DNA of 64,000 nt, taken from contig JAJXYN010000012.1 in assembly GCA_021780535.1 (NCBI GenBank), forward strand, positions 69,688-133,687. Direction: 5' to 3'. Below are positions 25,058 through 42,765 of the stretch, piece by piece. The notes beneath the pieces are model-generated. The model ran no database searches. It was not told where the DNA came from and saw only the letters and a list, made by a program, of their open reading frames with translations. Position numbers and translations under genes: made by a program. The stretch's first letter is position 1, and every line of letters begins with the position of its first letter. This DNA comes from a bacterium (GTDB lineage: Bacteria; Patescibacteriota; Patescibacteriia; JAGPKW01).

Positions 25058-25495
25058 ATGCAAAAACAAGAAATTAAAAAACAAGATAAGAAAGAGATAA
25101 AATTTCCGGAAGGAAAATATCTTTATGCTGTTGGTAGAAGAAAATCTGCTATAGCTCAAGTTAGACTTTATAGTGGAAGAGGAAAATCTATTGTTAATGG
25201 AGTTGAGGCTGAAAAATATTTTGCAACTCCACTTATTAATAAAATGATTGAACCTTTGAAGCAAGTTTCAAAAGAAGGTGAATATGATGTTTATGTTAAA
25301 GTTGTTGGTGGTGGAACAAATGGGCAATCAGAGGCTATTAGACACGGAGTTTCAAGAGCAATATCAGAAGGTGATAAAGCTATTAGAACTACATTGAAGA
25401 AGTTAGGATTTTTAACTAGGGATCCTAGAGTAGTTGAAAGAAAGAAACCAGGTTTGAAGAAAGCTAGAAGAGCTCCTCAATGGGCAAAGCGTTAA
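25058..25495 (+). CDS. rpsI: 30S ribosomal protein S9
   Basis: GRRKSAIA, LTRDPRVVERKKPGLKKARRAPQWAKR. Confidence 0.97.
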   Translation: MQKQEIKKQDKKEIKFPEGKYLYAVGRRKSAIAQVRLYSGRGKSIVNGVEAEKYFATPLINKMIEPLKQVSKEGEYDVYVKVVGGGTNGQSEAIRHGVSRAISEGDKAIRTTLKKLGFLTRDPRVVERKKPGLKKARRAPQWAKR

Positions 25496-25558: not shown

Positions 25559-25592
25559 AGGGACGTTCATTATTGTTATGAACGTCTTTTTT
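25559..25592 (+). terminator. Element-supplied terminator for the ribosomal operon
   Basis: AGGGACGTTCAT...ATGAACGTCTTTTTT. Confidence 0.6.
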
Positions 25593-25826
25593 GTTCCTCA
25601 TGTGATTTTATCGGTGATAGATTAGTTACGTCATTACTTTTCTATCCCCGATAAAATCACACGAGGCGATAATAGATTGCCTCCGATAAAGACTTTTTAA
25701 ACTTATAAAGGTCTTTATTTTTTTAATAATCAAAATAGGATTTAAAAAATCTTATAGAAAGGAATAAATTTAAATAAAAAATTAAATAAAAAGTCAGTAA
25801 TCTCTTATAAATTAACTAATTAAATA

Positions 25827-26184: not shown

Positions 26185-26916
26185 ATGGAAAATAGTGGTT
26201 GGATAAAACTTCATAGAAAAATAGAAGAAAACTGGATATTTCAAGAAAAAAGAGTTTTCAGTAAATTTGAAGCTTGGCTACATTTTTTATTAAGAGCAAA
26301 CCATAAAGATAATAGAATATCACTCGGAAATGAAATAATAGAAATCAAACAAGGAAGTTTTATCACATCAGAAATTAAATTAATGAATCTTTTTAATTGG
26401 TCAAAGACTAAAATCAGATCTTTTTTAGAAGTCTTAGAAAAAGAAAAAATGATTATTAAAAAATCTGATACAAAAAAGACCACTATTTCCATTGTAAATT
26501 ATAATATTTACCAGAATTTAGAAACCACAAAAAAACCAAACAAAAACCAAAACAAAACTATAACAGAACCACAAAAAGACACAGACGAAGAATTTAAAAA
26601 TGAAAAGAATTATATAAATAACGATAATAGAAATTTTAAAAAATTTTCAGAAGATGAATTATTTAAAATAGATTATCTTTTAGAAAAAATAGGAAGTGAA
26701 AAAGAAAAACAAACTCTACTCGCAATAGCTTATCAATTAGGAATAAATTGGTTAGAAACTAGAATACCTTTTATTTTAGAAGATAGAGCAAATATAAATA
26801 ATATAGGTGCATATATTATGACTTTGGCTAAAAAAGATGGTTATGTACCAAAAAAGATAACAAAAAATAATTTTAGAGAAATGAAAAATATGATAATGGA
26901 AAAATTATCAATCTAA
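26185..26916 (+). CDS. Phage-type replication initiator (replisome organiser, wHTH N-terminus)
   Basis: GWIKLHRKI..W...ANH....GSFITSE..L...W.W...R.FL..LE...T.ISIVNY..YQ signature, then a low-complexity linker with A-rich iteron-like repeats. Confidence 0.8.
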   Translation: MENSGWIKLHRKIEENWIFQEKRVFSKFEAWLHFLLRANHKDNRISLGNEIIEIKQGSFITSEIKLMNLFNWSKTKIRSFLEVLEKEKMIIKKSDTKKTTISIVNYNIYQNLETTKKPNKNQNKTITEPQKDTDEEFKNEKNYINNDNRNFKKFSEDELFKIDYLLEKIGSEKEKQTLLAIAYQLGINWLETRIPFILEDRANINNIGAYIMTLAKKDGYVPKKITKNNFREMKNMIMEKLSI

Positions 26917-26933
26917 AAAATCCAATAAAGACA

Positions 26934-27815
26934 ATGTCTAAAACAAGTTTTATACAAGTACCAGAAGAAATAACAGAAAAATATTATAACAATTTGCAAT
27001 CAGCAGATAGATTTATAATACCAAGAATGAGATTTAAAAAGACAATATTATCGAGACAATTTATAAAAGGATTAAAACAAAAAACTTATTTAAAACAAAT
27101 ATCAGAAATATGGAAAGAATTCACAAAAGAGCAAAAACAAGCATGGAAAAATGTGGATTCTAGGAAATACCCTCATGGTTGGAGAATGTTTGTAACTGAT
27201 CAAAGTTTAAGAATAAAGCTAGGACTTACCGGAATAGTAACGCCTAATATTTATCATCAAGACTTGGTTGGTAAAATTCAAATACAATCGCCAGCACAAG
27301 AAATAAAATTAATTCAATTACATCCAAATAGTTATTGGATAAGTAAAAAAGTAAAAGGTTCAAAAAACATGTACGAGCCTGTGAAGATTGAAGAATATTT
27401 ATCTTTACCTTTAAAAATAGGGATAAGTTATAAATCAAATTTAGAAGTAACCGGCGAAGGAGCTTTTGCAAAATATTTCGTACGAATAAGGCATTTATAT
27501 CAAGGCAGAAATTTATTTACAGATGTAAGTATAGATATGCTTGCAAATACAGATTGGACATATAAAGAAGCTCAAAATACTTTCATGTTAGGTCAAGCAA
27601 TTTCTTATGATTTATATATTCATTTATACAAAGTAAAAGGAGAATTATTATTTGATAATTTAAAAGCTATTCATTCAGGAAGTAATTGGGCAAGAGATCA
27701 ATATTGTAAAAAGATAGAAAGAACATACACGAGAGGATTTTATCAAATACCAGAACATTGGTCGCCAGTGATAATCTCTCAAGGTGCTGATTATAAATCA
27801 ATTTATCCTATTTAA
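26934..27815 (+). CDS. Putative structural protein: basic helical N-domain plus beta-rich C-domain
   Basis: WKEFTKEQKQAWK...GWRMF motif shared with ORF 29892. Confidence 0.55.
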   Translation: MSKTSFIQVPEEITEKYYNNLQSADRFIIPRMRFKKTILSRQFIKGLKQKTYLKQISEIWKEFTKEQKQAWKNVDSRKYPHGWRMFVTDQSLRIKLGLTGIVTPNIYHQDLVGKIQIQSPAQEIKLIQLHPNSYWISKKVKGSKNMYEPVKIEEYLSLPLKIGISYKSNLEVTGEGAFAKYFVRIRHLYQGRNLFTDVSIDMLANTDWTYKEAQNTFMLGQAISYDLYIHLYKVKGELLFDNLKAIHSGSNWARDQYCKKIERTYTRGFYQIPEHWSPVIISQGADYKSIYPI

Positions 27816-27823
27816 TTAAAAAT

Positions 27824-28645
27824 ATGTCAGATTTTCCAAATACAATTTATAACCCAAGAGCAAAAGAAAATATTTATGGTGTTGTTTTTGATACAGCAAA
27901 TAAAAAGATGGCTTATGCGGAAGATTTTCAATTTTTAGATAATGAGGTTGTCGCTATTGAAAATGAGTTAGGAATAAATATAAAAGGCGTTTATCTAACT
28001 TTGAGAGAAAGAATAGAAAAAATGGAAATTGATATTTTTTTAGCAAATGATACTTTAGAGCCAAAAGCAAATAAATTTGAAATAGTAGATTTCTCAAATT
28101 TTACAGCAAGTAAAGTAGGTTCAGGTTCTAATATTAAAACGTGTTTTAGATTAAAACTTGCAACAGGAACTACAATAAACAGCAATGCAATAGCATATTT
28201 AAAATATTATAATTACGGGAATGCAGAATTTAGTTTTGATGAGAGTTTTCGTTTAATATTTTTTATAACTCAAATTTCAGGCGTTTTAAACGCTAATACT
28301 TTCTTAAAGGTAGATAATGACATAAATCCAGTAAATCCATCTAGCAAGGCCATAGGATTCAAATTAAATGGGTATAAATTGTTTGGCATTATTCACAATG
28401 GTACAAGTCTTCAAGAAATTGATTTGACTAAAAACCTTAATGCAAATGGAAAATTTAAACTAGAAATAAAATTTTTTATGTATAGTAAAATTGAATTTTA
28501 TGTAAATGATGTTAAGAGAGGCGAAAGTCAAAATATTCCTAATAGCTCAATGACTAATTCTAATATTTCAGTAAGTGTTGCAAATAATGCAGTTGCTAGT
28601 AATCAAGAAATTGCAGTGGGAAAAATATATTTAAGTGCTATATAA
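27824..28645 (+). CDS. Putative virion/receptor-binding protein, ConA/LamG-like C-terminus
   Basis: EVVAIENELG linker and KIEFYVND beta motif, paralogous to the next ORF. Confidence 0.5.
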   Translation: MSDFPNTIYNPRAKENIYGVVFDTANKKMAYAEDFQFLDNEVVAIENELGINIKGVYLTLRERIEKMEIDIFLANDTLEPKANKFEIVDFSNFTASKVGSGSNIKTCFRLKLATGTTINSNAIAYLKYYNYGNAEFSFDESFRLIFFITQISGVLNANTFLKVDNDINPVNPSSKAIGFKLNGYKLFGIIHNGTSLQEIDLTKNLNANGKFKLEIKFFMYSKIEFYVNDVKRGESQNIPNSSMTNSNISVSVANNAVASNQEIAVGKIYLSAI

Positions 28646-28650
28646 AAAAT

Positions 28651-29454
28651 ATGAGTATAGAAAATTGGTGTAATTTACCAAAATCACAAATTGATAATGA
28701 AACAATAGAAAATGCTATAAAAAGATTAATACAAGCACATTGCAATGATGTTAATGCACATTTGGAAGATGGTCAGAGCTTACACTCTCATAAAGCAAGT
28801 GAGGTTATAGATCATTTAGCATTTTCAATAGTGTCAGACAAAATTCAACAAGGAGCTATAAAATTCTATCAAGTTGAAGATAATTTGAGGGTTAAATATA
28901 CTCCACCGCTTGAAAGTATGGATGGTTGGAATTCGTATGGTGTTAATTTAACTTTGGGTGGTTTTTCCATGTATCAAGCTAATTTGCAGAATGTTTTATA
29001 TTATGCGATGACTTCCGGAATAGTTCCATTGAATTGGGAAAAGAATTTTACTTTTTCATTTCTTTGTAAAATTGGAGATACTACAAACTGTGTTGCTTAT
29101 GCTCTTGCTGGTGATGTTATGTATGATTCAGAAGATCAAGGAATTGGTTTTAAATTCATGAATAATAAAGTTTATACAACGCATGTAAGTATGATTAATG
29201 ATGTTCTTACTGAATTTTTAACTGAAATAAATGTTCAAAATAAAAATAGTTTTAATTTATATAGAGTTGAATTTGTTGCAGGTCAAAAAATTGAATTTTA
29301 TGTAAATGATCTTTTACTTGCTACACATACAATAAATTTTCCAAGTCAGTATTATTGTCACGGAATTATATTTTGTTTCAATATAAAGAATGTAAAAGTT
29401 GGATATGGTGCAATGTATGAAGTTGGGCAATTATATTTTGCTCAAGATAAATAA
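28651..29454 (+). CDS. Putative virion/receptor-binding protein, ConA/LamG-like C-terminus
   Basis: H..D.NAH coiled motif, IGFKF and KIEFYVND. Confidence 0.5.
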   Translation: MSIENWCNLPKSQIDNETIENAIKRLIQAHCNDVNAHLEDGQSLHSHKASEVIDHLAFSIVSDKIQQGAIKFYQVEDNLRVKYTPPLESMDGWNSYGVNLTLGGFSMYQANLQNVLYYAMTSGIVPLNWEKNFTFSFLCKIGDTTNCVAYALAGDVMYDSEDQGIGFKFMNNKVYTTHVSMINDVLTEFLTEINVQNKNSFNLYRVEFVAGQKIEFYVNDLLLATHTINFPSQYYCHGIIFCFNIKNVKVGYGAMYEVGQLYFAQDK

Positions 29455-29469
29455 TTAATAAAAATAATA

Positions 29470-29904
29470 ATGGAAATAGCTGAAATAATAACAGGGAAGG
29501 AATATCCTGAAAAAGTTATACCGATGATAGAAAATTGTAAAAAATCTATAGATATAGTTGTATTTGATTGGCGATGGTATCCGGATCAAATAGGGTCTAG
29601 TATTCAAAGATTTAATAATGCAATTGTTAAAAAAGGAAATACTGGAAAGCAAATAAGGGCAATAACAAATACAAAAGAAATTTCAAATGTTTTAATTCAA
29701 GGAAATATAAAAGCAAAAATATGGAAATCAAAAAGATTATTACATACAAAATTAATGATGATAGATGATGAAATTGCAATAATAGGAAGTCATAATTATA
29801 CATTAAATGCTTTTACAATAAATCAAGAAGTTTCTTTAATTATCAAGCAGAAACAAGTTTTAGAAAAATTAAAATTATATTTTGAAAATTTATGGCAGTT
29901 ATAA
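29470..29904 (+). CDS. Single-HKD phospholipase D-family (Nuc-like) nuclease
   Basis: LHTKLMMIDDEIAIIGSHNYT..A...NQE. Confidence 0.9.
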   Translation: MEIAEIITGKEYPEKVIPMIENCKKSIDIVVFDWRWYPDQIGSSIQRFNNAIVKKGNTGKQIRAITNTKEISNVLIQGNIKAKIWKSKRLLHTKLMMIDDEIAIIGSHNYTLNAFTINQEVSLIIKQKQVLEKLKLYFENLWQL

Positions 29905-30254
29905 AGCCAATACAGGAAGTTAAATCTTTAAATATTAAAAATAAATTAGGTACTTCATCTAATTTTGGTCAATTAACATTTGGTGAGACTAGATTTGGTC
30001 AATTTAAAAGTGAATATGGAATATATCAACAAAGAAGAAAAAGAAAAATTAAAATAACGATAAAAACTAAATTCTACTTACCAAAAAATCCAAAAACAGA
30101 AAGACAAATGATAAACCGATTAAAATTTAAAGAAGCAGTAAAAAAATGGCAAAATTTGACAAATAATGAGAAAGAAAAATATAATATAAGTACAAAATAT
30201 AAAAACTTATCAGGATATAATTTATTTATTAAACTAACTTTACTATCTAATTAA
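29892..30254 (+). CDS. Small basic putative DNA-binding/structural protein
   Basis: PKNPKTERQMINRLKFKEAVKKWQNLTNNEKEKYN...SGYNLF. Confidence 0.6.
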   Translation: MAVIKPIQEVKSLNIKNKLGTSSNFGQLTFGETRFGQFKSEYGIYQQRRKRKIKITIKTKFYLPKNPKTERQMINRLKFKEAVKKWQNLTNNEKEKYNISTKYKNLSGYNLFIKLTLLSN

Positions 30255-30306
30255 AGAGTCGAGTAAAAGCAAAACATTTTATTAAATAGTTTAAAAATAA
30301 AAATAT

Positions 30307-30882
30307 ATGCCAAAAGTTTCAGGGCCATTAATGTCTATGGACGCTAGTGGTAAACTCGGAAATTCAATTGTGTTTGGTAAATGGAAAGGTCAACATACAG
30401 TTAGAAGTTATGTAAAACCAGCAAATCCAAAAAAACCAGAGCAAGGTGATGTTAGACTTATATTAGGTGGACTTGGTAGGGCTTGTGGTTTTGTAGCAAA
30501 AGATAAAGGTTATCATACAAAATTGTTAGCTTTAAATATTATTCCATCATCTCAAAGTAAACAATCTTTTTTAGTTAAATACTTCAAAGATTTATTTATA
30601 AATGGAAGTGGAACAGTAATGAATACTAATTACGATGATCTTTTACTAGAGTTACAAGCACATACTGCTTATGCTGATTTTAATACAAAAGCTGTATCAA
30701 TAGGAATATCAGATTTTAGTTTGAGTTATGCTAGTTTAGCACCATTTGAAAAAGCTCTTTGTCTTTATATATTAGCAAAAGGCGCAATTTCTTTGGGATT
30801 TACAGGAACACCTTACACAAAATCACTTGCAACTTGGACATCAACAGATATTCAATCTTTGATAGTAGATTTACAAGGTTAA
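30307..30882 (+). CDS. Putative major structural protein (DUF6266-like N-terminus)
   Basis: MPKVSGPLMSMDASGKLGNSIVFGKWKGQHTVRSYVKPANPK..Q..VR. Last gene of the operon, followed by the hairpin GGAGGTCTCAT...ATGAGGCCTCT. Confidence 0.55.
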   Translation: MPKVSGPLMSMDASGKLGNSIVFGKWKGQHTVRSYVKPANPKKPEQGDVRLILGGLGRACGFVAKDKGYHTKLLALNIIPSSQSKQSFLVKYFKDLFINGSGTVMNTNYDDLLLELQAHTAYADFNTKAVSIGISDFSLSYASLAPFEKALCLYILAKGAISLGFTGTPYTKSLATWTSTDIQSLIVDLQG

Positions 30883-31042
30883 AAATAGGAGGTCTCATTT
30901 TATATGAGGCCTCTTACGATTAAAAAAATTCAAAATACAATTTAAACCACCCACGATAAACTCAATAACAAACCTTTATCGGTTCAGAAATGCTATTTAA
31001 CTTTAACTTGATAAAGTCTTATACAAAGTATGAAGTACGCTC

Positions 31043-31630
31043 GCTAAATTTTTTATTCCGGAGTACCTCCATAAAAAAATAAGCTCGCTGATGAACGTTT
31101 ATCTATAATCAACGTTTTTTATCTAGTCCATCCCGCTCCTTTCTTATTAATGTTCGCAGTAGCTCACATAAATAAGAAATCCGCTAGCTAAAATTGCCCA
31201 TAATTTTTTGAGTACAAAAAAATAGGCAATTTCTCTGCTAATAAACTTCAGTTTGCAAAATAGACAAGTGCTAACCCGTAAAATTTTTATAAATCTTCGT
31301 AGTAACTACGATTAATAAAAAATTTTACTCACTGCATCACATTATTTTTATGTTCCGCTATCGCTACACATAAAAATAAGTGATTTATGAAAATTAAAAA
31401 GTAAGAAGTGCTAACCCGGAAAAAAATAATAAACTAAGGTTAAAAAATCCGGTGAACGTAACGGTGCTCGCATAACAAGACATTTTGCGACACCTCGCTA
31501 CGTGATTGCTAGTTTAAAAGCACATCTAAAGAACCGCTCGCCGCTCGCAAAATGCTATGTTATGCGACACCTATACAGACCATCACGTTTATTGCCCCGG
31601 ACTTTTTAGAAAATTAATCTATTTTTTTCC
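31043..31630. other. Non-coding hairpin array ending in a ~210-nt imperfect rod
   Basis: Five 40-50 nt hairpins (31043-31384) and a long inverted-repeat rod (31418-31630); see findings. Confidence 0.8.
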
Positions 31631-32015
31631 TAACTTCCGTAATCCTGCTATAACGTGCATCTCGTTTCGCCCTCTGCAAACTATAAACAGTCCATCACGT
31701 AAGTGCTTCGGGCGACCAAAAAACAACGATAAAAAGCGTAAATACAACGCAAAACAAGTCTTAAAAAACAAAACAAAATTTAAAATAAAAATAAAGCCTT
31801 CCGATTATGATAAGAAACGGAATGCCTCTAAGGATTTACTCATAGACTATTTTAGATAAAAAAAGCCTATAAACAATATTTTAAAAAAATAAAAACTTTA
31901 AAAATTAGCCATTTTTAATAAAACAAAAAAGCATAAAAGCTTTATATTTTTTTGCTATTTATAAAATACTTTTAGTGTTTTGGTTTTATAAAATAACAGC
32001 GTAATTACAATATAA

Positions 32016-32639
32016 ATGGAAATAAATAAAAGATATAAACAAAATATATTAATACCAGATCAATTTTTGACCCAGAACGAAGTTGGGTGCTTGTTGAAAT
32101 CCATAGATACAAGAACATTTTTAGGAAAAAGAGATAAAGTAATTCTGTTGTTATTTTTAAATACAGGACTTAGAAAAAATGAATTATTAAGTTTGAATAT
32201 AGAAAACTATAAAAAAGAAAATAATGATTATTGGTTAGAATTCAAAGCAAAAGGCGGACAAATACATATACAAAATATATCTCAAATAGAAGTTATAAAA
32301 GCCGTAGATTCATATTTAAAATTATGGAAAATAGGAAACAATGAATTAGAGCCTATATTTCAAAGTACTTATGATTGCAAAAATAAGAGTGGCAAAAGAT
32401 TAAGTAAACAGTCATTAGAATTTATGCTTAAAAAATATGGCAAACAAGCAGGAATTCAAAAAAAATTACATATTCATATGTTAAGACATACAGCAGGAAG
32501 TGAATTTTATAGATTAACTCAAAATTTACCTTTAACTCAAATGTTTTTAAGACATAAAAGTATAAATTCAACTCTTATCTATATGCACGCAGACAAAACA
32601 AAAGTAAAAGAAGTTCAAAAATTGATGTTCAAAAATTAG
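32016..32639 (+). CDS. Short tyrosine recombinase (catalytic domain only)
   Basis: TGLRKNE, KAKGG, HMLRH, LRHKS and IYMH give a complete R-K-H-R-H-Y set. 207 aa. Confidence 0.9.
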   Translation: MEINKRYKQNILIPDQFLTQNEVGCLLKSIDTRTFLGKRDKVILLLFLNTGLRKNELLSLNIENYKKENNDYWLEFKAKGGQIHIQNISQIEVIKAVDSYLKLWKIGNNELEPIFQSTYDCKNKSGKRLSKQSLEFMLKKYGKQAGIQKKLHIHMLRHTAGSEFYRLTQNLPLTQMFLRHKSINSTLIYMHADKTKVKEVQKLMFKN

Positions 32640-32792
32640 AAAAAAATCTCAAAGAAATCATCAAAAAAATACAGGACAAATCTTGAAAAATAACTCAGAT
32701 CAAACTCGAAAAAAATATCAGAAAAAACTTTGAAAAAATATCAAACTAAATATCAATAAAAACCTAAATAAAATATCTAACAAACAAAAGAT

Positions 32793-33212
32793 ATGATTAT
32801 AAAAGATCTAAATAGATTAAATAAAAAAGTAAAAGAATTATGCGAAAAATTTATCAATGAGTGTAAAAACAAAGATATAACTGTAATTATCACAGAAACA
32901 TTTAGAGATAAATCAAGACAAGAACAAGCAGTAATCGAAAATAAAAGCAATGCTCATTTTGGTTACTCATTTCATAATTATGGATTAGCTTTCGATTTTG
33001 CTGTGTTAAATAAAAATAAAGGAATCACTTGGAATGTAAATAAAGATAAAAATTGGTTTATTTGCGGTGAAATCGGTAAGAAACTAGGTCTTTCTTGGGG
33101 TGGTGATTGGAAAATGAAAGATTATTGTCATTTTGAGTTCTATTTTAATATAAATAGAGATGTTTTGCTTAATAAATTATTAAAAGGATTTGATGCTAAT
33201 AAATTAAGTTAA
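32793..33212 (+). CDS. M15-family peptidoglycan peptidase (endolysin)
   Basis: ETFR...Q, SFHNYGLAFD, WGGDW..DYCHFE. Confidence 0.9.
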   Translation: MIIKDLNRLNKKVKELCEKFINECKNKDITVIITETFRDKSRQEQAVIENKSNAHFGYSFHNYGLAFDFAVLNKNKGITWNVNKDKNWFICGEIGKKLGLSWGGDWKMKDYCHFEFYFNINRDVLLNKLLKGFDANKLS

Positions 33213-33216
33213 AAAT

Positions 33217-33420
33217 ATGCCAGAAACAAAACAAATTTATCAATCAATGACGATTATGGGCGCTGTTATCGTAATAATTTCTTTTGTTGTTAATAGATTA
33301 AATATTGATATTTCAAATAAAGAAGTTGTTGATGTAGTGAGTGCGGTTTTTGTAATAGGAGGCGCTTTGATTTCTATTATTGGACGAATTAGGGCTAATA
33401 AGAGGATAGGGAAAAAATAA
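33217..33420 (+). CDS. Putative holin (2 TM)
   Basis: Two hydrophobic helices and a basic GRIRANKRI tail, 4 nt after the lysin. Confidence 0.7.
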   Translation: MPETKQIYQSMTIMGAVIVIISFVVNRLNIDISNKEVVDVVSAVFVIGGALISIIGRIRANKRIGKK

Positions 33421-33858
33421 CAATTATGTTTTATATTAGATAATTATTTATAATTAGGATTTCTTCATCATTTCTTCATTTTGTTTTGCTATAATATTTC
33501 TATTTATTTTTTAAAATATAATTTATGTTTTACTTTATGACTGATAAAAATGAAGTATTAGTTTTTATCAGTGCCGTTATTATATTTATTTTGTCTGTTA
33601 TTGTATATTATAAATTTTTTTATAATAGAAATAAGTAGTTTATAAATTTGTACACTGGTTGATTTTGTTATATTTAAAAGGTATATTATTTAAAATATTT
33701 CAATTAAATAAAAGAATTAATTTAAAATAGCTTGTAAAAAGCTTATTTTGAAAATATTTTTTGTGCACAACCACAAATGCGGTAAAGATGTTATAATTAA
33801 AATATATATTAAGATATAAATTATAACTATTTAATTTTTAAAGAAGTATGTTAAAAGT

Positions 33859-35982
33859 ATGTTAAAAGTTCAAATAGAAAAAAATAAAATATTTTCTCCT
33901 CTTAGAAAAAAATGGTTAATAAATACTCCAGAAGAAGAAGTCAGACAAGGTTATATTTGTAAGCTTGTTAATGATTATGGGTATGATTTAGAACAAATAG
34001 ATGAAGAGTTGCAGGTAAATAATAGTTTAAGAGGACAAGGTAAATCAAGAGCAGATATTGTCATTTGGAAATCAAAAGAAGAAAGGTTGAGCAAAAAAAA
34101 TGCTTTTATTGTTGTTGAATGTAAATCTGATAATGTTGTTATACATCCAGAAGATTATTATCAAGGTAATAACTATGCTTCTTGGGCAAGGGCTAAATTT
34201 TTTATTACTCACAATAATGCTGAAACAAAGTATTTTCAGATGCTTGAAGATAAATTACCTATTGATTTAAATGAAATAGCTAATATACCCAAAGCGGAAG
34301 AAGTAAATAATGAGATTAGATTGAAAGAGTTAGTTGATGAAACTAAAGTATTTACTAGAGATGAATTTTCAAAGTTACTTTATAAATGTCATACAATAAT
34401 TAGAAATAATGACAAACTTTCTCCTGAAGGTGCTTTTGATGAAATTAGTAAAATATTATTTATTAAGATAAGATATGAAAGACAAAAAGGGAAAAATATA
34501 TTTTCTCTTGCTCGTTTTAATGAATTAAAAAATAATTATGAAGAAACTGCTTCTAGAAACTCTAAGCCGTTTTATCAAAATTTATTTGAAAAAACAAAAG
34601 ATGATTTAGAGAAAGATGAACTTTTTGAAACGAATGAAGAGATAAAAATTCGTGAAAATAGCTTTGAACAAATAGTAAAAGAACTGGAGAAATATAATCT
34701 TTCAGATACAGGAGATGATGTTAAAGGAATAGCTTTTGAGCAATTTTTAGGCAAAACATTTAGAGGTGAGCTTGGGCAATTTTTTACTCCTAGAACAATA
34801 GTTGATTTCATGGTTGATATTTTAGACCCAAAAGAAAATGATTTAATTTGTGATCCTTGTTGTGGATCTGGTGGTTTTCTTATTAAAGCTTTTGACTATA
34901 TTAGAGCTAAAATTGAAGCTGATATTTTGAGACAAAAAGAAGAAATCAAAAATAAATATTTTGATGAAAAGTATCAAAAATTAGATGATAAAGAAAAGCA
35001 AAAGATTGATGATACTGTAGAACGTGAATTTAAGAAATTGAATCAAGAACTAGATAATAAAATAGAAAAATCTAGATTACATAATTTATCTCATAATTGT
35101 ATATATGGTTCTGACGCTAATCCAAGAATGGCAAGAACTAGTAAAATGAATATGATTATGCATGGTGATGGTCATGGTGGAGTTCATCATAATGATGGAT
35201 TATTGGATGTTAATGGTATCTTTGAAAACCGTTTTGATATAATTCTTACAAACCCTCCTTTTGGTTCAAGAGTTGGCAAAGATCACAAAATAACAGATAA
35301 TGATAATAAATATAAAGGCAAAGAATCTTATATTAAAGAAAAATTTGGTGATGCAGGTTTAAATGCAATATCTAATTTAGAGAATAACATTGGTAAAAAT
35401 CTTATAGAAACTTATGAAACTGGAAGTTTTTCAACTCTTACAGAAGTTTTGTTTATGGAACGTTATCTAAGATTGCTTAAGCAAGGTGGGAAAATGGCCG
35501 TTGTTTTGCCAGAGGGTTTTTTAAATAATCCAAATTTACAAAAAGTAAGAGAATATTTTGAAGGTAGAGCTAAGATTGAGCTTATCGTTTCTATCCCTCA
35601 GGATGTATTTATAGCTAGCGGGGCTACGGTAAAGCCCAGTTTGGTGTTTTTACAAAAATTTACTCAAGTAGATAGTAAAAAATATGAAAAAATAAAAGAG
35701 GAAGTAAATAAAAATATTATAGAAAAATATCAAATTCAAATAGATGAATTAGAAAATGAATTAGAAAAACTAAAAGGAGATAAAAGAAAACTAAAGAAAA
35801 AAGAATTGGATAATTTAGAAATTCTTATTGAAACTGAGATAAAACAGGAGATTAAAAATAAATTTGATTATCAAATACCAATAGTAGAAGTTGAAAAAGC
35901 TGGCATTACAACAACAGGAGAAAAATGTGAAAATGAACTTTTAGATGTAGTAAAAGAGTATAGAAAATATAAATCTAAATAA
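33859..35982 (+). CDS. Fused restriction nuclease (HSDR_N-like) plus HsdM-type N6-adenine methyltransferase
   Basis: PEEEVRQ..ADIVIW..VECKS, then GQFFTPR, DPCCGSGGFL and TNPPFG. Confidence 0.9.
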   Translation: MLKVQIEKNKIFSPLRKKWLINTPEEEVRQGYICKLVNDYGYDLEQIDEELQVNNSLRGQGKSRADIVIWKSKEERLSKKNAFIVVECKSDNVVIHPEDYYQGNNYASWARAKFFITHNNAETKYFQMLEDKLPIDLNEIANIPKAEEVNNEIRLKELVDETKVFTRDEFSKLLYKCHTIIRNNDKLSPEGAFDEISKILFIKIRYERQKGKNIFSLARFNELKNNYEETASRNSKPFYQNLFEKTKDDLEKDELFETNEEIKIRENSFEQIVKELEKYNLSDTGDDVKGIAFEQFLGKTFRGELGQFFTPRTIVDFMVDILDPKENDLICDPCCGSGGFLIKAFDYIRAKIEADILRQKEEIKNKYFDEKYQKLDDKEKQKIDDTVEREFKKLNQELDNKIEKSRLHNLSHNCIYGSDANPRMARTSKMNMIMHGDGHGGVHHNDGLLDVNGIFENRFDIILTNPPFGSRVGKDHKITDNDNKYKGKESYIKEKFGDAGLNAISNLENNIGKNLIETYETGSFSTLTEVLFMERYLRLLKQGGKMAVVLPEGFLNNPNLQKVREYFEGRAKIELIVSIPQDVFIASGATVKPSLVFLQKFTQVDSKKYEKIKEEVNKNIIEKYQIQIDELENELEKLKGDKRKLKKKELDNLEILIETEIKQEIKNKFDYQIPIVEVEKAGITTTGEKCENELLDVVKEYRKYKSK

Positions 35983-35983
35983 C

Positions 35984-37339
35984 ATGGTTTCTGTGATAAA
36001 TAAAATTGAATATAAATATTTACAATTCACATCTTTTAAAAATTGGTTAAATTGGGATGTAAAAAGTTATGCAAAAAACAATCTTAAATCAGATTATGAG
36101 TTTATAAAATTAGGCTCTGTGTTAAAAGAACATGTTGAAAAAGTAAAATTAAAAGATTTTCCAGACAAAGAGTTTGGTATTTTAGGTGTAAATAATAAAA
36201 TTGGTATTTTCGATGCTTATTTGGAAAAAGGTTCAAAAATAAATCAGCCATATAAAATATTAAAAAACAATTGGATTGCTTATAATCCTTATCGTGTAAA
36301 TGTTGGTTCAATAGGAATTAAAACACAAAATGAAAAATATGAGTATATAAGTAATGCTTATGTTGTTTTTAGTTGTGATGAACAAAGATTAGATACGGAT
36401 TTCTTTTTTAGACTTTTTAAAACAGATACATTTAATAATCTTGTTAAGAAATCAACGAAAGGTTCTGTTCGTCAAAATCTTTCTTTTGATTTACTTAGTA
36501 ATATTCAAATTCCTTTGCCTTCTATTAGTGCTCAAAAAGAATTTATAAAAATTTATAATAATAAAATATCAGACATTAAAAAACTAGAAATTCAAGTTAA
36601 CGAAATAAGTAGTAAAATTGAAAGTTATTTAATGAAAGAGCTTAATATAAGCGTAGAGAAAACTCAAAAAATAAAAGGTCTTCATTTTGTAAATTTTAAA
36701 AATTTAAATAAGTGGACATTAAATGAAACAACTTTAGAGAAAATACAAGAAAAATCAAAATATAAGGCTGTCCCAATAGAAAAAATATCAGAAAGTATTT
36801 TAAGAGGAAAATCTCCAAAATATGACGATAATTCTAATTGTGTTATTTTAAATCAAAAATGTAATCGTTGGGATGAAATTGATTTGGAATTTGCAAAAAC
36901 AGTAAATAAAGAATGGCTAAATAAGCAAACTCTTTTTACTAAAGAAAGTGATGTTTTGATAAATTCAACCGGCGAAGGAACAATTGGAAGATCTACGTAT
37001 ATATTAAAAAGTTATGAGGGGTTACTTTTTGATAGTCATCTACTTTTATTTAGGGGAGATAAAAAAATTATAAATGGAAAATATTTTGTGTATTGGTTTA
37101 ATTCAACAATAAATCAACAATATCTGAATGAAATAAAATCAGCGCAAACAACAAAACAAACAGAATTAGGATCTAATAATTTAAGTAATATGTTGATTCC
37201 TTTACCACCTCTTGAAACGCAAGAAGAAATAGTAAATCAAATAGATTCTTGGAAAAATAAAATTAAGGATATTAATGAAAAAATTGAGTCATTAAGAGAA
37301 GGTGCTCAAAAAGAATTTGAAGTTAATCTTTTTAAATAG
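35984..37339 (+). CDS. HsdS-type specificity subunit
   Basis: Two TRDs, ending IPLPSISAQ and IPLPPLETQEEIV. Confidence 0.9.
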   Translation: MVSVINKIEYKYLQFTSFKNWLNWDVKSYAKNNLKSDYEFIKLGSVLKEHVEKVKLKDFPDKEFGILGVNNKIGIFDAYLEKGSKINQPYKILKNNWIAYNPYRVNVGSIGIKTQNEKYEYISNAYVVFSCDEQRLDTDFFFRLFKTDTFNNLVKKSTKGSVRQNLSFDLLSNIQIPLPSISAQKEFIKIYNNKISDIKKLEIQVNEISSKIESYLMKELNISVEKTQKIKGLHFVNFKNLNKWTLNETTLEKIQEKSKYKAVPIEKISESILRGKSPKYDDNSNCVILNQKCNRWDEIDLEFAKTVNKEWLNKQTLFTKESDVLINSTGEGTIGRSTYILKSYEGLLFDSHLLLFRGDKKIINGKYFVYWFNSTINQQYLNEIKSAQTTKQTELGSNNLSNMLIPLPPLETQEEIVNQIDSWKNKIKDINEKIESLREGAQKEFEVNLFK

Positions 37340-37355
37340 ATGCAATAAAGTAAAA

Positions 37356-37410
37356 TTTATAAAAAATAAAAAACTAAGATTTATTTCTTAGTTTTTTTAT
37401 TTTTTATAAA
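37356..37410. terminator. Long AT-rich inverted repeat / terminator
   Basis: TTTATAAAAAATAAAAAACTAAGA...TCTTAGTTTTTTTATTTTTTATAAA. Confidence 0.55.
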
Positions 37411-37506
37411 GTTCATGATTTGTTCATTTTTTGCATACCTTATTGAAAAAACATTTAAAAGGTGTATCATTAAATAGTAAATATACTAAATGATTTTTAT
37501 AAAAAT

Positions 37507-38781
37507 ATGAATGAAATTATATGTCCAAATTGTAAAAAAGCTTTTAAAGTTGATGAGGCTGGTTTTGCTGATATTCTTAAACAAGTCCGCGATGAAGCGT
37601 TTAGTAAAGAATTAAAAGAACGTGAGAGAATGTTTGCTGAAGATAAAGAGAATTCTATTAAATTAGCTGAAGCAAATATTAAAAATTTGTTACAAAAAGA
37701 TATTTCAAAAAAAGAAACGGAAATAGCTGAAATAAAAGCTAAAAAAGATTTAGAGATTGCTGAACTTGATGCAAAAAAAGAAGCTGAATTGGCTGAAATG
37801 AAATCAAAAATAGATAATGCAGAAATTGAGAAAAAACTTGCCGTAACTGAAGCAGTAAATAAAATTGAGAAAGATCGTGATAATCTTGCAGGTGAATTAA
37901 AAATTAAAGATACAGAAAAACAATTACTTGAAACATCATTAAAAGAAAAATATATCACAGAACTTAAAACAAAGGATGATATTATTAAAATGAAAGATGA
38001 TGAAATTGCTCTTCGTAAAGATATGAAAGTTAAACTTTCTACAAAAATGATAGGTGAAACATTAGAACAACATTGCGAAACAGAGTTTAATAAACTTCGT
38101 GCTACTGGTTTTCAAAATGCATATTTTGAAAAAGATAATGATGTAAAAACTGGTAGTAAGGGTGATTATATTTATCGTGAAAATACTGAAGAAGGTAATG
38201 AAATTATTTCTATTATGTTTGAAATGAAAAATGAAGGAGATGAAACTGCTACAAAGAAAAAAAATGAAGATTTTTTACGTGAGCTTGATAAAGATCGTAT
38301 AGAGAAAAAATGTGAATACGCGGTGCTTGTTACTCTTCTTGAATCTGAAAATGAATTATATAACACTGGTATCGTTGATGTTTTTCATAAATATCCAAAA
38401 ATGTATGTAATTCGTCCACAATTTTTTATTCAAATAATAACTTTATTACGTAATGCAGCTACGAATTCTCTAAAATATAAAGCAGAACTTGCATTAGTAA
38501 GAAATCAAAATGTTGATATTACAAATTTTGAGGACAATGTAAATAAATTTAAAGAAGAATTTGGAAGAAATTATGAATTGGCCAGTCGTAAGTTTAAAAC
38601 AGCTATTGAAGAAATAGATAAAACAATAGATCATCTTCAAAAAACTAAAGAAGAACTTTTATCATCTGAAAACAACCTTCGTTTAGCCAATAATAAAACA
38701 GAGGATTTAACCATTAAAAAACTAACACGTGGTAATCCTACTATGACAGCTAAATTTGCAGAGATTACAAATATTAAATAA
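37507..38781 (+). CDS. DUF2130-family coiled-coil protein
   Basis: [37 protein letters not shown]. Confidence 0.85.
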
Positions 38782-38795
38782 TAACTAAAATATAT

Positions 38796-39008
38796 ATGCA
38801 AAGACAAAATGTTTCATCTTCTGATATTGCTTCAATTGGGTACGATCAAAATTTATTCATATTAGAAATTGAATTTTTAAGTGGAGGAATATATCAATAT
38901 ATTAATGTGCCAAGTAGTATTTTTCAAGGAATAATGTCCGCTTCTTCTCATGGTGTTTATTTTCATCAATATATTAAAGATAAATATAGCTGTAATAAAA
39001 TTAAATAA
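38796..39008 (+). CDS. KTSC-domain protein
   Basis: VSSSDIASIGYD....LEIEF.SGGIYQY..VP.......ASSHG.YF. Confidence 0.9.
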   Translation: MQRQNVSSSDIASIGYDQNLFILEIEFLSGGIYQYINVPSSIFQGIMSASSHGVYFHQYIKDKYSCNKIK

Positions 39009-39010
39009 AT

Positions 39011-40897
39011 ATGTTTTTAACAAAATTAATAATAATAAATAACAAAAGTTGCAAAAGAGTAATTTTAGAACCATCTAAGGATGAGCCAGAAATTTTGATT
39101 GGTATAAACGATTGCGGAAAGTCTACAATTTTAAAGTCTTTAGATTTATTTTTTGATGAGAAAAAAAATTTTAGTTTTATTAAAGAAGATCAACAAAAAA
39201 ATGATCTTTCAAACTCTCCTTTAAACAACTTAGAAATCAATGAATTATTAGAAGAAAATAAGTATCCAAGTTTTTTTGAGTATTCTGGTGATGTTATTAT
39301 CGTTATTTGTCAATTTGAGGTAGAAGAAAATGATTTAAAAAATAATGAATTTCAAGAAAGTTCAAAAAATGCTCATTTAAAATGGAGTATTATTGATAAT
39401 AAAATAAATTTAATGCGTGTATTTCATAATTCTGAACAAGGATCACAGAATTTGAGCGGGTATTATTTACTAACTAATGATTATAAAGATAATGAAAGTT
39501 ATTTAGAGTTATGGAATAAGCCAGCTAAAGAATTAACAGAAATTAAGAAAAAATTTAATATTGATAATAAAGATGTAGATAATGAAAATAATGTTGGTCG
39601 TTTAAAGAATATTGAAAATATAGAGGCAATTTATAAAAAAATGCCTACCTTATGTATGAAATGGTCTAAATATAGTGATTTTTCAAAAGATAAAACATTC
39701 TACCCAAATTTTAAATATTTGGATTGGAATTTTTCTTTAAAGGAATTAGAAGATATAGCTACTGAGGCAATGAATAAGGTGACAGAACCACTACTTCAAG
39801 AGATAAGACAGTTGGTTTCTGAAAAACAATCCGAAGCTATAATCGGTGTTAATAATGAATTTGCTAGTATGATGGGAGATTTGAAAGATGATCTACCTAA
39901 GTGTGTAAAAAAAATTAGCTCATCAGTATTTTTTGATGTAAGTCAAAAGGTTACTGATATAAAACTAGAAAAAGAAAATGTTGATGGAGAAATACATATA
40001 GATAATCAAGGAGAGGGCATAAAGAGGCAGATTTGGTTTGCGTTGTTAAAGTGGCGTAGTAAATTAATATCTAATGAAAATAAATCAAATAAATATGTTT
40101 GGTGTTTTGATGAACCAGAAACACATTTATATCCTGCCGCACAAAGGCAACTCTTTGAGACATTAAAAGAAATGTGTAGTAATGAATTTCAAATATTATT
40201 GAGCACACACTCAACAATTTTTATAGATAGAACAAAAATTAGTGATGTTAAGCAAGTAACTTTAGAAGGTGGTTACTCAACTATTTATAAAAGCGATAAC
40301 TCAACAGATCTTTTTAATTGTTTGGGTATAAAAAATAGTGATTTTTTGTTTTTTGATAAGTTTTTAGCCGTAGAAGGCTTTACTGAGTATGGTTTAATTC
40401 CATATTTGTATCAGTTGAAATATTCTAGGTCATTATTAAATGATGGAATACAAATCATCAACTTAAAAGGGGAAGACCAATATTTAAATAATAAAGGTAT
40501 CTTAGAAAATATTTTATCTGATTTTCAGAAGACTAGTGATAAAATTTTTTATTTATTTGATAATGATACAGGAATGTCTGGCGACAATATTTTTACTTCT
40601 GGCACTTATGATATAGAAGATTCTATTGAAAATAATATTTGGATTGAATTTGTAAAAGATAATTGTGATATAGATATAACGGAAGATATTTTGAATAATG
40701 ATATAAGAAAAAAATTAGAAAACAAGAATGGTAAAAAATTTTATAAGTTACTTGGAGATTATGTAGTAAAAAATTTAAAAGATGAAAAATATTTGCCATC
40801 TAAAGCTAGATCGGGTTATTTGTTAACTAAGTATTTTAAAGACATTAAAGATATTCCTAAAAAAATTGATAACCTTTTTAACGCATTAAGTTCTTAA
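39011..40897 (+). CDS. OLD-family ATP-dependent nuclease (ABC ATPase + TOPRIM)
   Basis: GINDCGKST, QGEG, FDEPETHLYP, STHS, VEGFTE and FDND. Confidence 0.85.
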   Translation: MFLTKLIIINNKSCKRVILEPSKDEPEILIGINDCGKSTILKSLDLFFDEKKNFSFIKEDQQKNDLSNSPLNNLEINELLEENKYPSFFEYSGDVIIVICQFEVEENDLKNNEFQESSKNAHLKWSIIDNKINLMRVFHNSEQGSQNLSGYYLLTNDYKDNESYLELWNKPAKELTEIKKKFNIDNKDVDNENNVGRLKNIENIEAIYKKMPTLCMKWSKYSDFSKDKTFYPNFKYLDWNFSLKELEDIATEAMNKVTEPLLQEIRQLVSEKQSEAIIGVNNEFASMMGDLKDDLPKCVKKISSSVFFDVSQKVTDIKLEKENVDGEIHIDNQGEGIKRQIWFALLKWRSKLISNENKSNKYVWCFDEPETHLYPAAQRQLFETLKEMCSNEFQILLSTHSTIFIDRTKISDVKQVTLEGGYSTIYKSDNSTDLFNCLGIKNSDFLFFDKFLAVEGFTEYGLIPYLYQLKYSRSLLNDGIQIINLKGEDQYLNNKGILENILSDFQKTSDKIFYLFDNDTGMSGDNIFTSGTYDIEDSIENNIWIEFVKDNCDIDITEDILNNDIRKKLENKNGKKFYKLLGDYVVKNLKDEKYLPSKARSGYLLTKYFKDIKDIPKKIDNLFNALSS

Positions 40898-41160
40898 TAT
40901 AATTTGTACACAATAATTGTTCAAATATTTCTCTAAAACTAAACAAAAAAGCACTTATACACAGTGCTTTTTTTGTTGGTTCTAAGATGAATTTTCAGAA
41001 ATTTAATAAGATTTTAATTAGAAAATTAATAATTTGTTCATCACCACTATGTTATAGTTTCTTTTGTTAAAAACTTAATAGAAGGGGATTTAAAAATATT
41101 ATTTTAAGACATAAGGAAATCTTAAAATAGTGATTTTAATTAAAAATGGTTTGTAATTTC

Positions 41161-41352
41161 TTATTTTTTCTTTTCTTTGGCTTCTGGAAATACTTTTAAG
41201 AAATCATCTTCATTTACTACTACGATTTCTTTTTTTATTTCTCTTTTTGAGGCTTTTAGTTCTTTTGATAAGACTTTTCTTCTTATTGTTTCATAATGTA
41301 CGCCGTATTTTTTTGATAATTCTAGTAGAGTATATTCTTTATTATCGGACAT
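41161..41352 (-). CDS. HTH excisionase-like protein
   Basis: YTLLELSKKYGVHYETIRRKV..KELKASK; divergent from the integrase. Confidence 0.75.
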   Translation of the reverse strand: MSDNKEYTLLELSKKYGVHYETIRRKVLSKELKASKREIKKEIVVVNEDDFLKVFPEAKEKKK

Positions 41353-41575
41353 TTGATTTTTTGTTTATCTGATTTTATTAGATGTAATATATATTTTATC
41401 AGTAATTTTGGCTAATATAAATACTTTTTGAAATATGTTGATAGGTCTATTGTGTATCAATACACATTATGATATAATTTTTACATAAGAGATTGCTGAC
41501 CATTTTAAAAGTGGTTGGTATTTTTATTTTTTTAAATATTAAATACTGACAATATCTAATAATTAACTTAAAAAA

Positions 41576-42505
41576 ATGGCAGAAATTATTAATATTGATA
41601 AGAGTAATATTAAAATAGTAAATGATTTTTTAGATTGGTTGGCTATCGGACATTCTTTGGAAACAGTTGATTCATATAAGTGGCCTTTGAGATTATTTTG
41701 TAAATGGTTATCTGGCAAAGAAAAAAATGTTATTGATATGAAAGAAAAAGATTTTGTAGCCTTTCATTTATTTTTAAAAGAAGACAGGCAGGTAAAAAAT
41801 TCAACGATGGCTCATTATTTTACATCTATTAGAACACTTTGGAGATATATGTATAGAAATGAAATGGTAAATTATGGTGATGATAAAATTCCAATGCCAA
41901 AAGCTGATGATAAACAATCTTATCCTTATGCGGAAGAGGCTGATATAAATAAAATACTTGATTCATTTAGGGGCTGGGATATAAAAGATATTAGAGATAA
42001 AGCTATTGTTTCTTTATTGTATAAGACAGGTTTAAGAATAGGAGAGTTGAGAAGTCTTGATATTTCTGATGTTGATTTAGAATTTAAAAAAGCTACTGTT
42101 CAAACTGAAAAAAGGATAGGACACAAAAGAGAAATTTATTGGGATGATAAAACAAATGAATTTTTAAAAAACTGGATAGATACAAGAGAAGAATTTTTAC
42201 TACAAGAAAGACGATCAGAAAATGCTTTATTTATAGGTATGACAATGGGTAGTAAAGATAAAAGAATAGATAGATCAACAGTACAAAAGATGTTTAGAAA
42301 AAAAAGAGATGAGTTAGGAATAAATAAAAAACTAACACCACATTCTTGCAGACATGGATTCGGACATAGAGCAGTAGAAAAGAATGTAAATATTAGATAT
42401 CTTCAAGTAATGCTTGGGCATTCAAAAATAGACACAACAATGATTTATATGGGTTGTAAAAATAAAGACGTAGAAACTGCTTATAGACAATTAATGTTCG
42501 CTTAG
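41576..42505 (+). CDS. Tyrosine integrase (XerC/D-like)
   Basis: SAM-like N-domain, TGLRIGE, TPHSCRH, LGHS and TTMIY; adjacent to the right att core. Confidence 0.92.
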   Translation: MAEIINIDKSNIKIVNDFLDWLAIGHSLETVDSYKWPLRLFCKWLSGKEKNVIDMKEKDFVAFHLFLKEDRQVKNSTMAHYFTSIRTLWRYMYRNEMVNYGDDKIPMPKADDKQSYPYAEEADINKILDSFRGWDIKDIRDKAIVSLLYKTGLRIGELRSLDISDVDLEFKKATVQTEKRIGHKREIYWDDKTNEFLKNWIDTREEFLLQERRSENALFIGMTMGSKDKRIDRSTVQKMFRKKRDELGINKKLTPHSCRHGFGHRAVEKNVNIRYLQVMLGHSKIDTTMIYMGCKNKDVETAYRQLMFA

Positions 42506-42682
42506 ACTAATCAAAAGAAGTTCCTAAAAAACTTCTTTTTGGTTTAAAAATATAAATACTGTTGTGGTAAAAGTTAATCTCCACAATTAAATTTTACAAA
42601 ATATTTAGTAGTTGATATAATGAAAAGAATTAAATATCTCTTAGGTTTAAAAATACTTATTGGAATAACAGCAATGACGAAA

Positions 42683-42765
42683 CCCCAATGGGCAAAAAGA
42701 TAATTTTCTGTTTATTTTTTCTATCATAGTAAAAACAATTCTGAGAAATCGGAATTGTTTTTTTG
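42683..42765 (+). other. Displaced original rpsI 3' end (attR) and its terminator
   Basis: Encodes PQWAKR*, followed by AAAAACAATTCTGA-GAAA-TCGGAATTGTTTTTT. Confidence 0.85.

What the first reader, a model, noticed from the sequence alone, without database searches (positions are those of the whole stretch)
31418..31630. ~210-nt rod containing two inverted recombinase core sites (attC/CTX-attP-like) upstream of a minimal tyrosine recombinase
Seen: site 1 TCGCATAA-caagaca-TTTTGCGA (31468-90) and site 2 TCGCAAAA-tgctatg-TTATGCGA (31545-67). Each is a pair of inverted arms around a 7-bp spacer, and the two are inverted relative to each other. Folding pairs them with the central 3 spacer bases mismatched. 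Pairing extends outward: GGTG/CACC, AACGT/ACGTT, TAAAAAATCCGG/CCGGACTTTTTA and GGAAAAAAATA/TATTTTTTTCC. Known: integron attC (TAAC...GTTA ends, unpaired spacer) and CTXphi attP are folded-ssDNA substrates for tyrosine recombinases, and TCGCATAA resembles the XerC arm of dif. Inference: substrate of the 207-aa recombinase 385 bp downstream, used for ssDNA recombination, dimer resolution, inversion or hairpin-end formation.
Basis: partly seen in the sequence, partly recalled or inferred. Interest (0 to 1): 0.82.

Follow-up and report, generated by a model that had tools for sequence, protein, structure and literature searches.

The report
Paired recombinase sites inside a provirus
The folded DNA rod is real and sits beside a stripped-down recombinase gene in the middle of an integrated virus-like element whose free relatives look like linear genomes with hairpin ends, so it may be the spot where this element's circle is opened into, or closed from, a hairpin-ended linear form, although that step is inferred and not shown.

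Summary
In detail: two complete 8-7-8 sites, inverted, 54 bp apart, with spacers differing at the central 3 bases. It is the only such pair in the 860-kb genome (0 of 3000 shuffles), and both strands fold (z about -5). The rod is not the integration site. It lies 6 kb inside a 17.2-kb provirus whose att core (end of rpsI, 25478; copy at 42686) flanks a second, full-length integrase. It is not a true attC: no L-box bulge, no cassette, and the 207-aa enzyme lacks the IntI insertion and the core-binding domain. The element's gene block belongs to a family of 8-13-kb virus-like contigs that I did not find in print. In 13 of 32 a contig end matches a distant inverted repeat, 8 fold back at the tip, and almost none carries a recombinase. 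Best reading (0.4): one strand exchange between the inverted sites converts the excised circle to a hairpin-ended linear genome and back, a cos/terminase-like role. Against it: rod plus enzyme was seen in this lineage only, and contigs of four runs showed no fold-back. Scan look-ups by sequence found no earlier report.

The parts
31468..31490 (+). Site 1: 8-bp arm, 7-bp spacer, 8-bp inverted arm (arms differ at one position); complete recombinase-type core site
31545..31567 (-). Site 2: same arms in inverted orientation; spacer identical at its two outer bases on each side, different at the central three
31491..31544 (.). 54-bp segment between the sites; no fold beyond shuffles and no sigma-70-like match; would be the terminal loop of a hairpin end
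   Evidence: role inferred
31405..31638 (.). Whole imperfect rod including outer arms (31405-31467 with 31568-31638)
30883..32015 (.). 1.1-kb non-coding region with a terminator-like hairpin after the 191-aa gene and a row of further hairpins (z -2 to -5.7); GC up to 0.49 at the rod against 0.26 for the genome
32016..32639 (+). 207-aa tyrosine recombinase, catalytic domain only (no core-binding domain); R53, K79, H154, R157, H180, Y189 invariant in 20 aligned homologues of 195-208 aa
32793..33420 (+). M15 peptidase endolysin (32793-33212) and 67-aa holin-like membrane protein (33217-33420), co-oriented with the recombinase
   Evidence: holin label inferred from size, hydrophobicity and position
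26934..30882 (+). Conserved gene block of the virus-like family: 293, 273, 267 aa, PLD-type protein (29470-29904), 120 aa, 191 aa; the 293-, 120- and 191-aa families link into one similarity cluster; putative virion or nucleoprotein module
   Evidence: structural role inferred, no known fold matched
26185..26916 (+). DnaD-like / lambda-O-like replication initiator
   Evidence: phrog_2514, E 4e-35
25478..25488 (+). attL core, 11 bp, in the last codons of rpsI
42686..42696 (+). attR core, second and only other genomic copy of the 11-mer, followed by sequence that matches the DNA directly after rpsI in a same-genus genome
41576..42505 (+). 309-aa full-length tyrosine integrase next to attR, with a divergent 63-aa HTH_17 gene (41161-41352, -); likely the integration/excision module
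   Evidence: role inferred from position
33859..40897 (+). Cargo inside the provirus: restriction-modification pair, DUF2130, KTSC, OLD-type ATPase/nuclease

Best explanation
The rod is the circle-to-linear switch of a temperate, virus-like element. SHOWN: the element is a 17.2-kb provirus integrated at rpsI beside a full-length integrase; the rod lies 6 kb inside it, directly before a catalytically intact, core-binding-domain-less tyrosine recombinase that heads the lysis genes; free relatives carry long inverted repeats capped by a fold-back segment. INFERRED: after excision (309-aa integrase) and theta replication (DnaD-like initiator), the rod extrudes as a cruciform, or folds when single-stranded, so that each arm displays one complete site with a 3-nt bubble. 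The 207-aa enzyme exchanges one pair of strands between the two inverted sites. Outward branch migration then replaces the imperfect outer arms with perfect duplex and leaves two covalently closed hairpin ends, whose loops are the 54-nt segment and its complement (flip and flop). The same chemistry run backwards on two hairpin ends would recircularise an incoming linear genome so that it can integrate. The rod and enzyme would thus play the part that cos and terminase play for lambda, or telRL and protelomerase for N15, with a different site design.
For: Rod is internal, so it is not att. A single exchange between inverted recombinase sites is known to linearise a replicon (PMC4792948, passages). 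Among 32 non-redundant close-relative contigs of 7 kb or more, 13 end in a match to a distant inverted repeat, 8 fold back at the tip and 7 do both; caps are long perfect stems with branched ends. The model accounts for three separate features: two complete inverted sites, outer arms that pair on their own, and spacers that stay different, which a full two-step inversion of the folded form would make identical (inference). Enzyme is intact and co-oriented with lysin and holin, as an end-maturation gene would be. Telomere resolvases and tyrosine recombinases share chemistry and can be interconverted by point mutation (PMC12270096, PMC13221069, abstracts).
Against: Rod plus enzyme plus gene block was seen only in this lineage. 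Of 142 loci holding a relative of the 191-aa gene, 9 had any tyrosine recombinase and none an orthologue of the 207-aa one; none had an equivalent site pair; 0 of 155 viral recombinase loci held the 191-aa family. So the capped relatives must make their ends another way. Contigs of four runs gave flat depth, one unbroken contig across the rod, and no listed joint at the rod or at att; two low-depth variant contigs run through site 2 without folding back (contigs drop rare forms and some rows were not shown). A proposed motif linking this non-coding region to the relatives' terminal repeats failed a strict test. Contigs cannot tell a hairpin-ended linear molecule from a circle with two inverted repeats. 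No binding or cleavage data. Activity in the lysogen would break the chromosome, so tight control must be assumed.
Confidence: 0.4

Rival explanations
1. Folded single-strand attachment site for intermolecular recombination (works like attC or CTX attP): the folded rod recombines with a duplex partner site, by the 207-aa enzyme or a host Xer, to capture DNA or to give a second integration route.
For: Parses as attC geometry, 96 nt, with AAC/GTT triplets and 5-nt spacers; folded form has a central bubble; two inverted sites like CTX attP1/attP2 (PMC4246890, passages); outer arms selected for pairing. Earlier scan notes report attC-like arrays beside Xer-like genes in CPR bacteria.
Against: No L-box bulge, both strands equivalent; no cassette gene beside it and no second attC-like site in the provirus or near the host's two Xer-like genes; no partner site in the genome; not used for the present integration; initiator is theta-type, not rolling-circle; no IntI in 251 genomes of the phylum (the same family rang in 41 of 61 genomes of another order).
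Confidence: 0.15
2. Multimer resolution: the enzyme recombines site 1 with site 1 (or 2 with 2) between monomers of a dimeric circle, like loxP/Cre; the differing spacers stop the two sites reacting with each other, and the second site is accessory or an operator.
Against: Does not explain the outer arms or why a second, inverted, arm-identical site is kept.
Confidence: 0.15
3. Not a substrate of this recombinase: the rod is an origin, packaging or priming structure, or a pair of operators for another dimeric protein, in a region that is hairpin-rich throughout the family.
For: The whole intergenic region is a hairpin array, as are the non-coding ends of recombinase-free relatives; one arm 8-mer occurs in 7 of 15 hand-picked relative termini (no shuffle control).
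Against: Two self-symmetric 8-7-8 sites with conserved spacer edges and an AAC at the arm-spacer border is recombinase-site geometry; the pair appears only in the family member that has the small recombinase.
Confidence: 0.15
4. Relic or passenger: the two sites are the ends of a shrunken recombinase-mobilised unit, or rod plus enzyme were picked up as a module unrelated to the virus life cycle.
For: Relatives mostly lack both; an earlier scan note reads a similar pair in another genome this way (e1-6701450).
Against: The enzyme gene lies outside the pair; the gene is intact with allelic variants at only 1-4 residues; no other copy in the genome or in 30 related genomes.
Confidence: 0.08
5. 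Inversion switch: a FimB/FimE-like invertase flips the 54-bp segment.
For: Enzyme has the size of FimB/FimE-type profiles (198-200 positions) and likewise only the catalytic domain; sites are inverted.
Against: Scores 55-57 bits against cut-offs of 221-222; spacers differ at 3 of 7; no promoter-like match in the segment; no inversion joint in contigs of four runs; 54 bp is short for a duplex synapse (general knowledge).
Confidence: 0.07

Closest known systems
Hairpin-telomere systems: phage N15 telRL/TelN, Borrelia ResT, Agrobacterium TelA
   Same: A tyrosine-recombinase-type enzyme proposed to turn an inverted-repeat junction into two hairpin ends (abstracts of PMC12270096 and PMC13221069); enzyme gene next to the site, as recalled for N15.
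   Different: Those use one palindrome cut about its centre by a dedicated resolvase. Here there are two separate core sites 54 bp apart and a Xer/Cre-like catalytic domain with no telomere-resolvase Pfam hit; the element is also chromosomally integrated.
CTXphi attP(+) (two inverted dif-like sites, folded single strand, host XerC/D)
   Same: Two inverted sites tens of bases apart that pair into a stem with a mismatched centre; single strand exchange (PMC4246890, passages).
   Different: CTX sites are individually unsuited as duplexes, sit at the prophage junction and use host enzymes. Here both sites are complete 7-bp-spacer dyads, lie mid-provirus, and have their own enzyme; integration is at rpsI.
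Integron attC / IntI
   Same: Box-spacer-box geometry with AAC...GTT ends, 96 nt, unpaired central spacer.
   Different: No L-box extrahelical base, fully symmetric, no cassette or array, enzyme lacks the IntI insertion and the N-terminal domain.
FimB/FimE-type invertases
   Same: About 200 aa, catalytic domain only.
   Different: Far below profile cut-offs; heterologous spacers; no promoter-like match in a 54-bp segment.
Poxvirus, rudivirus and parvovirus hairpin termini (recalled, not tested)
   Same: Relatives show about 1-kb inverted repeats with branched fold-back caps and encode a PLD-family protein; vaccinia's nicking-joining enzyme is K4L (title seen in a reference list only; its PLD family is recalled).
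   Different: Bacterial hosts with lysins and holins; the 191-aa protein matched no solved or predicted viral fold.

Membership tests
Integron attC/IntI | R''/R' boxes with AAC and GTT triplets and a 5-6-nt unpaired spacer | tested here: met
   96-nt parse 31470-31565 on both strands
Integron attC/IntI | Extrahelical base in the L box (8-nt L'' against 7-nt L') giving strand choice | tested here: not met
   28 of 28 hits in 12 regions next to true IntI genes were 8 against 7 (26 with the bulge at the 4th base); the rod is 8 against 8 with no mismatch
Integron attC/IntI | Site closes a gene cassette, usually in an array | tested here: not met
   Nearest co-oriented gene ends about 590 nt upstream; no other attC-like site in the provirus
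Integron attC/IntI | Integrase with the IntI-specific insertion | tested here: not met
   TIGR02249 31.9 bits against cut-off 265; about 30-residue gap against five IntI proteins
Integron attC/IntI | Score under the IntegronFinder attC covariance model | not testable with these tools
   Model not on hand; the Rfam scan gave only five sub-threshold hits, none at the rod
CTXphi-type IMEX attP | Two inverted sites that fold into one site | tested here: met
   CTX layout from PMC4246890
CTXphi-type IMEX attP | Site is the integration point and lies at the prophage junction | tested here: not met
   att cores at 25478 and 42686; rod 5,990 bp inside
CTXphi-type IMEX attP | Single-stranded genome with rolling-circle initiator | tested here: inconclusive
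   Initiator is DnaD/O-like; strandedness of particles cannot be read from contigs
Hairpin telomere resolvase systems (TelN, ResT, TelA) | Single palindromic replicated-telomere junction | tested here: not met
   Two sites separated by a 54-bp non-palindromic segment
Hairpin telomere resolvase systems (TelN, ResT, TelA) | Enzyme of the telomere-resolvase family | tested here: inconclusive
Hairpin telomere resolvase systems (TelN, ResT, TelA) | Linear hairpin-ended form of this element exists | tested here: inconclusive
   Not seen in contigs of four runs; fold-back signature in 8 of 32 relatives
FimB/FimE invertase switch | About 200-aa catalytic-domain-only recombinase | tested here: met
FimB/FimE invertase switch | Sequence membership of the invertase subfamily | tested here: not met
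   56.5 and 55.2 bits against cut-offs 221 and 222
FimB/FimE invertase switch | Invertible promoter segment found in both orientations | tested here: inconclusive
   No sigma-70-like match in the segment; no inversion joint in contigs, which drop rare forms
Xer/dif or Cre/lox resolution | Dyad core site with 6-8-bp spacer and catalytic RKHRH-Y enzyme | tested here: met
Xer/dif or Cre/lox resolution | Two-domain enzyme (core-binding plus catalytic) and one site per monomer | tested here: not met
   No core-binding domain (PMC8138268 passages describe simple recombinases as two-domain); two inverted sites; XerA/C/D cut-offs not reached

The most novel reading that the evidence does not exclude
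A widespread, apparently undescribed family of small bacterial viruses with hairpin-capped inverted termini and coat-like proteins of unknown fold has a temperate member that integrates into a CPR-like chromosome and uses a minimal tyrosine recombinase on two inverted, spacer-mismatched sites to open its circle into a hairpin-ended virion genome and to close it again after infection: a new way to make and undo hairpin telomeres by a programmed single strand exchange.
Probability: 0.35. Interest if true: 0.9.

Novelty: new variant of a known kind. Interest (0 to 1): 0.7.

Why it matters
Single strand exchange between inverted sites is usually treated as a lethal accident that integrons and CTX phage are built to avoid. 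If this element uses it on purpose, it is a natural link between site-specific recombinases and telomere resolvases, and a 207-aa enzyme with a 100-bp substrate makes it directly testable in E. coli or in vitro, with possible use for making closed-ended linear DNA. Independently of the mechanism, the locus ties an apparently undescribed family of small virus-like genomes with fold-back termini to a host chromosome, with defined att sites, in a bacterial group whose viruses are poorly known.

Full report
OBSERVATION. Aligned in inverted orientation they agree at all 16 arm bases and at the two outer bases on each side of the spacer, and differ at the central three. No other match with up to one mismatch exists in the 860,089-base, 12-contig genome. 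A sequence-blind detector of paired inverted dyads found only this pair in the genome and none in 3000 dinucleotide shuffles of the intergenic region. Both strands fold into a rod (z -5.24 and -5.58). The outer arms pair on their own better than shuffles (6 and 1 of 1000; limits picked after the fact), while the 54-nt centre does not. The rod is the largest of a row of hairpins filling 30883-31760.

THE ELEMENT. In two same-family genomes rpsI is followed within 0.2-0.75 kb by the smr and serS genes that lie at 43323 and 43836 here. An 11-bp core in the last codons of rpsI (25478-25488) recurs at 42686-42696 and nowhere else in the genome, and the DNA after rpsI in a same-genus genome aligns with the DNA after the right copy. 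The island is therefore a provirus of 17,219 bp (excised circle 17,208 bp), with a full-length 309-aa integrase and a divergent HTH gene beside attR. Its order is attL, DnaD-like initiator, a six-gene block, the hairpin region with the rod, the 207-aa recombinase, M15 endolysin, holin-like gene, defence cargo, HTH, integrase, attR. The rod is 5,990 bp inside. It is intact and was not used for this integration. The host is a 0.86-Mb, 26% GC genome; that it is CPR/Patescibacteria is my inference from size and from the labels of related contigs. In the probable source run one contig of depth 17.4 spans 26365-43832 without a difference, so the layout is not an assembly join.

THE FAMILY. The 191-aa protein has 97 database hits; Atlas neighbours are unnamed clusters labelled mostly viral, with DUF6266 as a weak lead; its confident helical model (pLDDT 88.9) matched nothing in three structure libraries. 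Scans gave 138 loci (the metagenome scan kept the best 80 of 537). The close ones are whole contigs of up to 13 kb with the same block (PLD in 66, the 293-aa gene in 34 of 138), plus glycosyl- and methyltransferases, LamG or beta-helix proteins and varied lysins. Of 32 non-redundant close contigs of 7 kb or more (one duplicate dropped), 13 end in a match to a distant inverted repeat, 8 fold back at the tip, 7 do both (a stricter exact-match count gave 16, 4 and 4 of 33). The tips are perfect stems of 30-120 bp around branched caps of roughly 180-380 nt. This is the assembly signature of either a linear molecule with hairpin ends or a circle with two inverted repeats around a short unique segment; the two are related by exactly one strand exchange. 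Only 9 of 142 loci hold any tyrosine recombinase, none an orthologue of the 207-aa one, and none has an equivalent site pair. Some distant members are proviruses with lambda-like control genes or integrases. Relatives were in 2 of 400 other genomes of the class.

IS IT attC? It parses as one: box, 5 nt, box, centre, box, 5 nt, box, 96 nt. But in 12 regions beside true IntI genes all 28 hits of the same scanner had the 8-against-7 L box, 26 with the bulge at the fourth base, whereas the rod is 8 against 8 and reads the same on both strands. There is no cassette, no array in the provirus or near the host's Xer-like genes, and nothing like it in 20 sampled CPR Xer regions. No IntI was found in 251 genomes of the phylum, with a search that rang in 41 of 61 genomes of another order. 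It resembles attC and CTX attP (PMC4246890, passages) in shape, but is a member of neither.

MECHANISM. Inferred throughout. One strand exchange between inverted sites on one duplex joins the top strand to the bottom strand on each side; for integron sites this is reported to linearise the replicon (PMC4792948, passages). If the rod extrudes as a cruciform, each arm carries a full site, the 54-nt loops are already apart, and branch migration through the imperfect outer arms yields two hairpin ends. The spacer mismatch survives this cycle, whereas a second exchange (inversion) would give daughters with identical spacers; the spacers are not identical. The reverse reaction would fuse two hairpin ends into a circle fit for integration. 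The site would then sit where cos sits in lambda (recalled): away from att and just before the enzyme that processes it, ahead of the lysis genes. Telomere resolvases and recombinases can be interconverted by few mutations (PMC12270096 and PMC13221069, abstracts). I put this at 0.4. Folded-strand intermolecular recombination, multimer resolution and a non-recombinase role get 0.15 each, a passenger module 0.08, inversion 0.07.

EVIDENCE AGAINST. The combination was seen once, plus near-identical population variants, so co-variation is untested. Contigs of four runs from one study showed flat depth, no listed joint at the rod or att (15 joints shown, 7 not; 12 further rows shown, 7 not), and two low-depth variant contigs passing site 2 unbroken; this fits a quiet lysogen and cannot exclude rare forms. 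A motif thought to link this region to the relatives' termini failed. The capped relatives need another end-making route; their conserved PLD protein is a candidate by analogy only (one search shows a title, nothing more).

NOVELTY. No paper on the family or on such a site pair turned up (the library omits most subscription journals; no supplements were read). Scan look-ups by sequence were empty. Verdict: a real, highly non-random recombinase-type site pair in an unusual provirus; new variant of folded or hairpin-forming tyrosine-recombinase sites, with a fair chance of a new telomere mechanism. Interest 0.7.

Noticed in passing
L037:1-1100, L049:10200-11273, L034:9700-11005, L040:10150-11399, L048, L038, L064, L069: Family of 8-13-kb virus-like contigs with about 1-kb inverted terminal repeats ending in branched fold-back caps, several related coat-like genes of unmatched fold, a PLD protein, sugar-modifying enzymes and lysins, and mostly no recognisable replication gene; not found in print. 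Deserves its own study.
   Followed up: partly
L037, L049, L034, L040, L031, L089 terminal stems: A TTGACA hexamer lies in the last 750 nt of 7 of 12 capped termini checked, in several at the base of the terminal stem next to a GC-rich hairpin; it could be a promoter aimed at the cap. No control was run.
   Followed up: no
window 25478-25488 and 42686-42696: Provirus integrated into the 3' end of the ribosomal protein S9 gene rpsI, restoring its last codons; the site also carries other insertions in same-family genomes.
   Followed up: yes
window 25590-25672: Strong 31-bp-arm hairpin (z -8.4) just inside attL; the contig of run X1 differs from the window at 7 positions in 25624-25702 and another contig leaves the window at 25714.
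   Followed up: no
window 33859-40897: The restriction-modification pair and the DUF2130-KTSC-OLD cassette reported earlier by the scan lie inside the provirus borders, so they are viral cargo.
   Followed up: partly
window 31266-31281 and 31406-31420: Direct repeat of 13 bases, 140 bp apart, flanking two hairpins; the second copy opens the rod.
   Followed up: no
L095:8022-9150: A close relative on a 10.3-kb contig with permuted gene order carries a 269-aa tyrosine recombinase and repeated operator-like motifs upstream of it, without a paired site: perhaps another temperate or circular member.
   Followed up: partly
P0106-P0197: Many of the best distant hits to the small recombinase are 490-750-aa proteins with two recombinase-like stretches, i.e. 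tandem fusions.
   Followed up: no
G000 C1:16402-16491 and C2:55617-55704: Two related 88-90-nt hairpins with long AT-rich arms elsewhere in the genome, outside the window.
   Followed up: no
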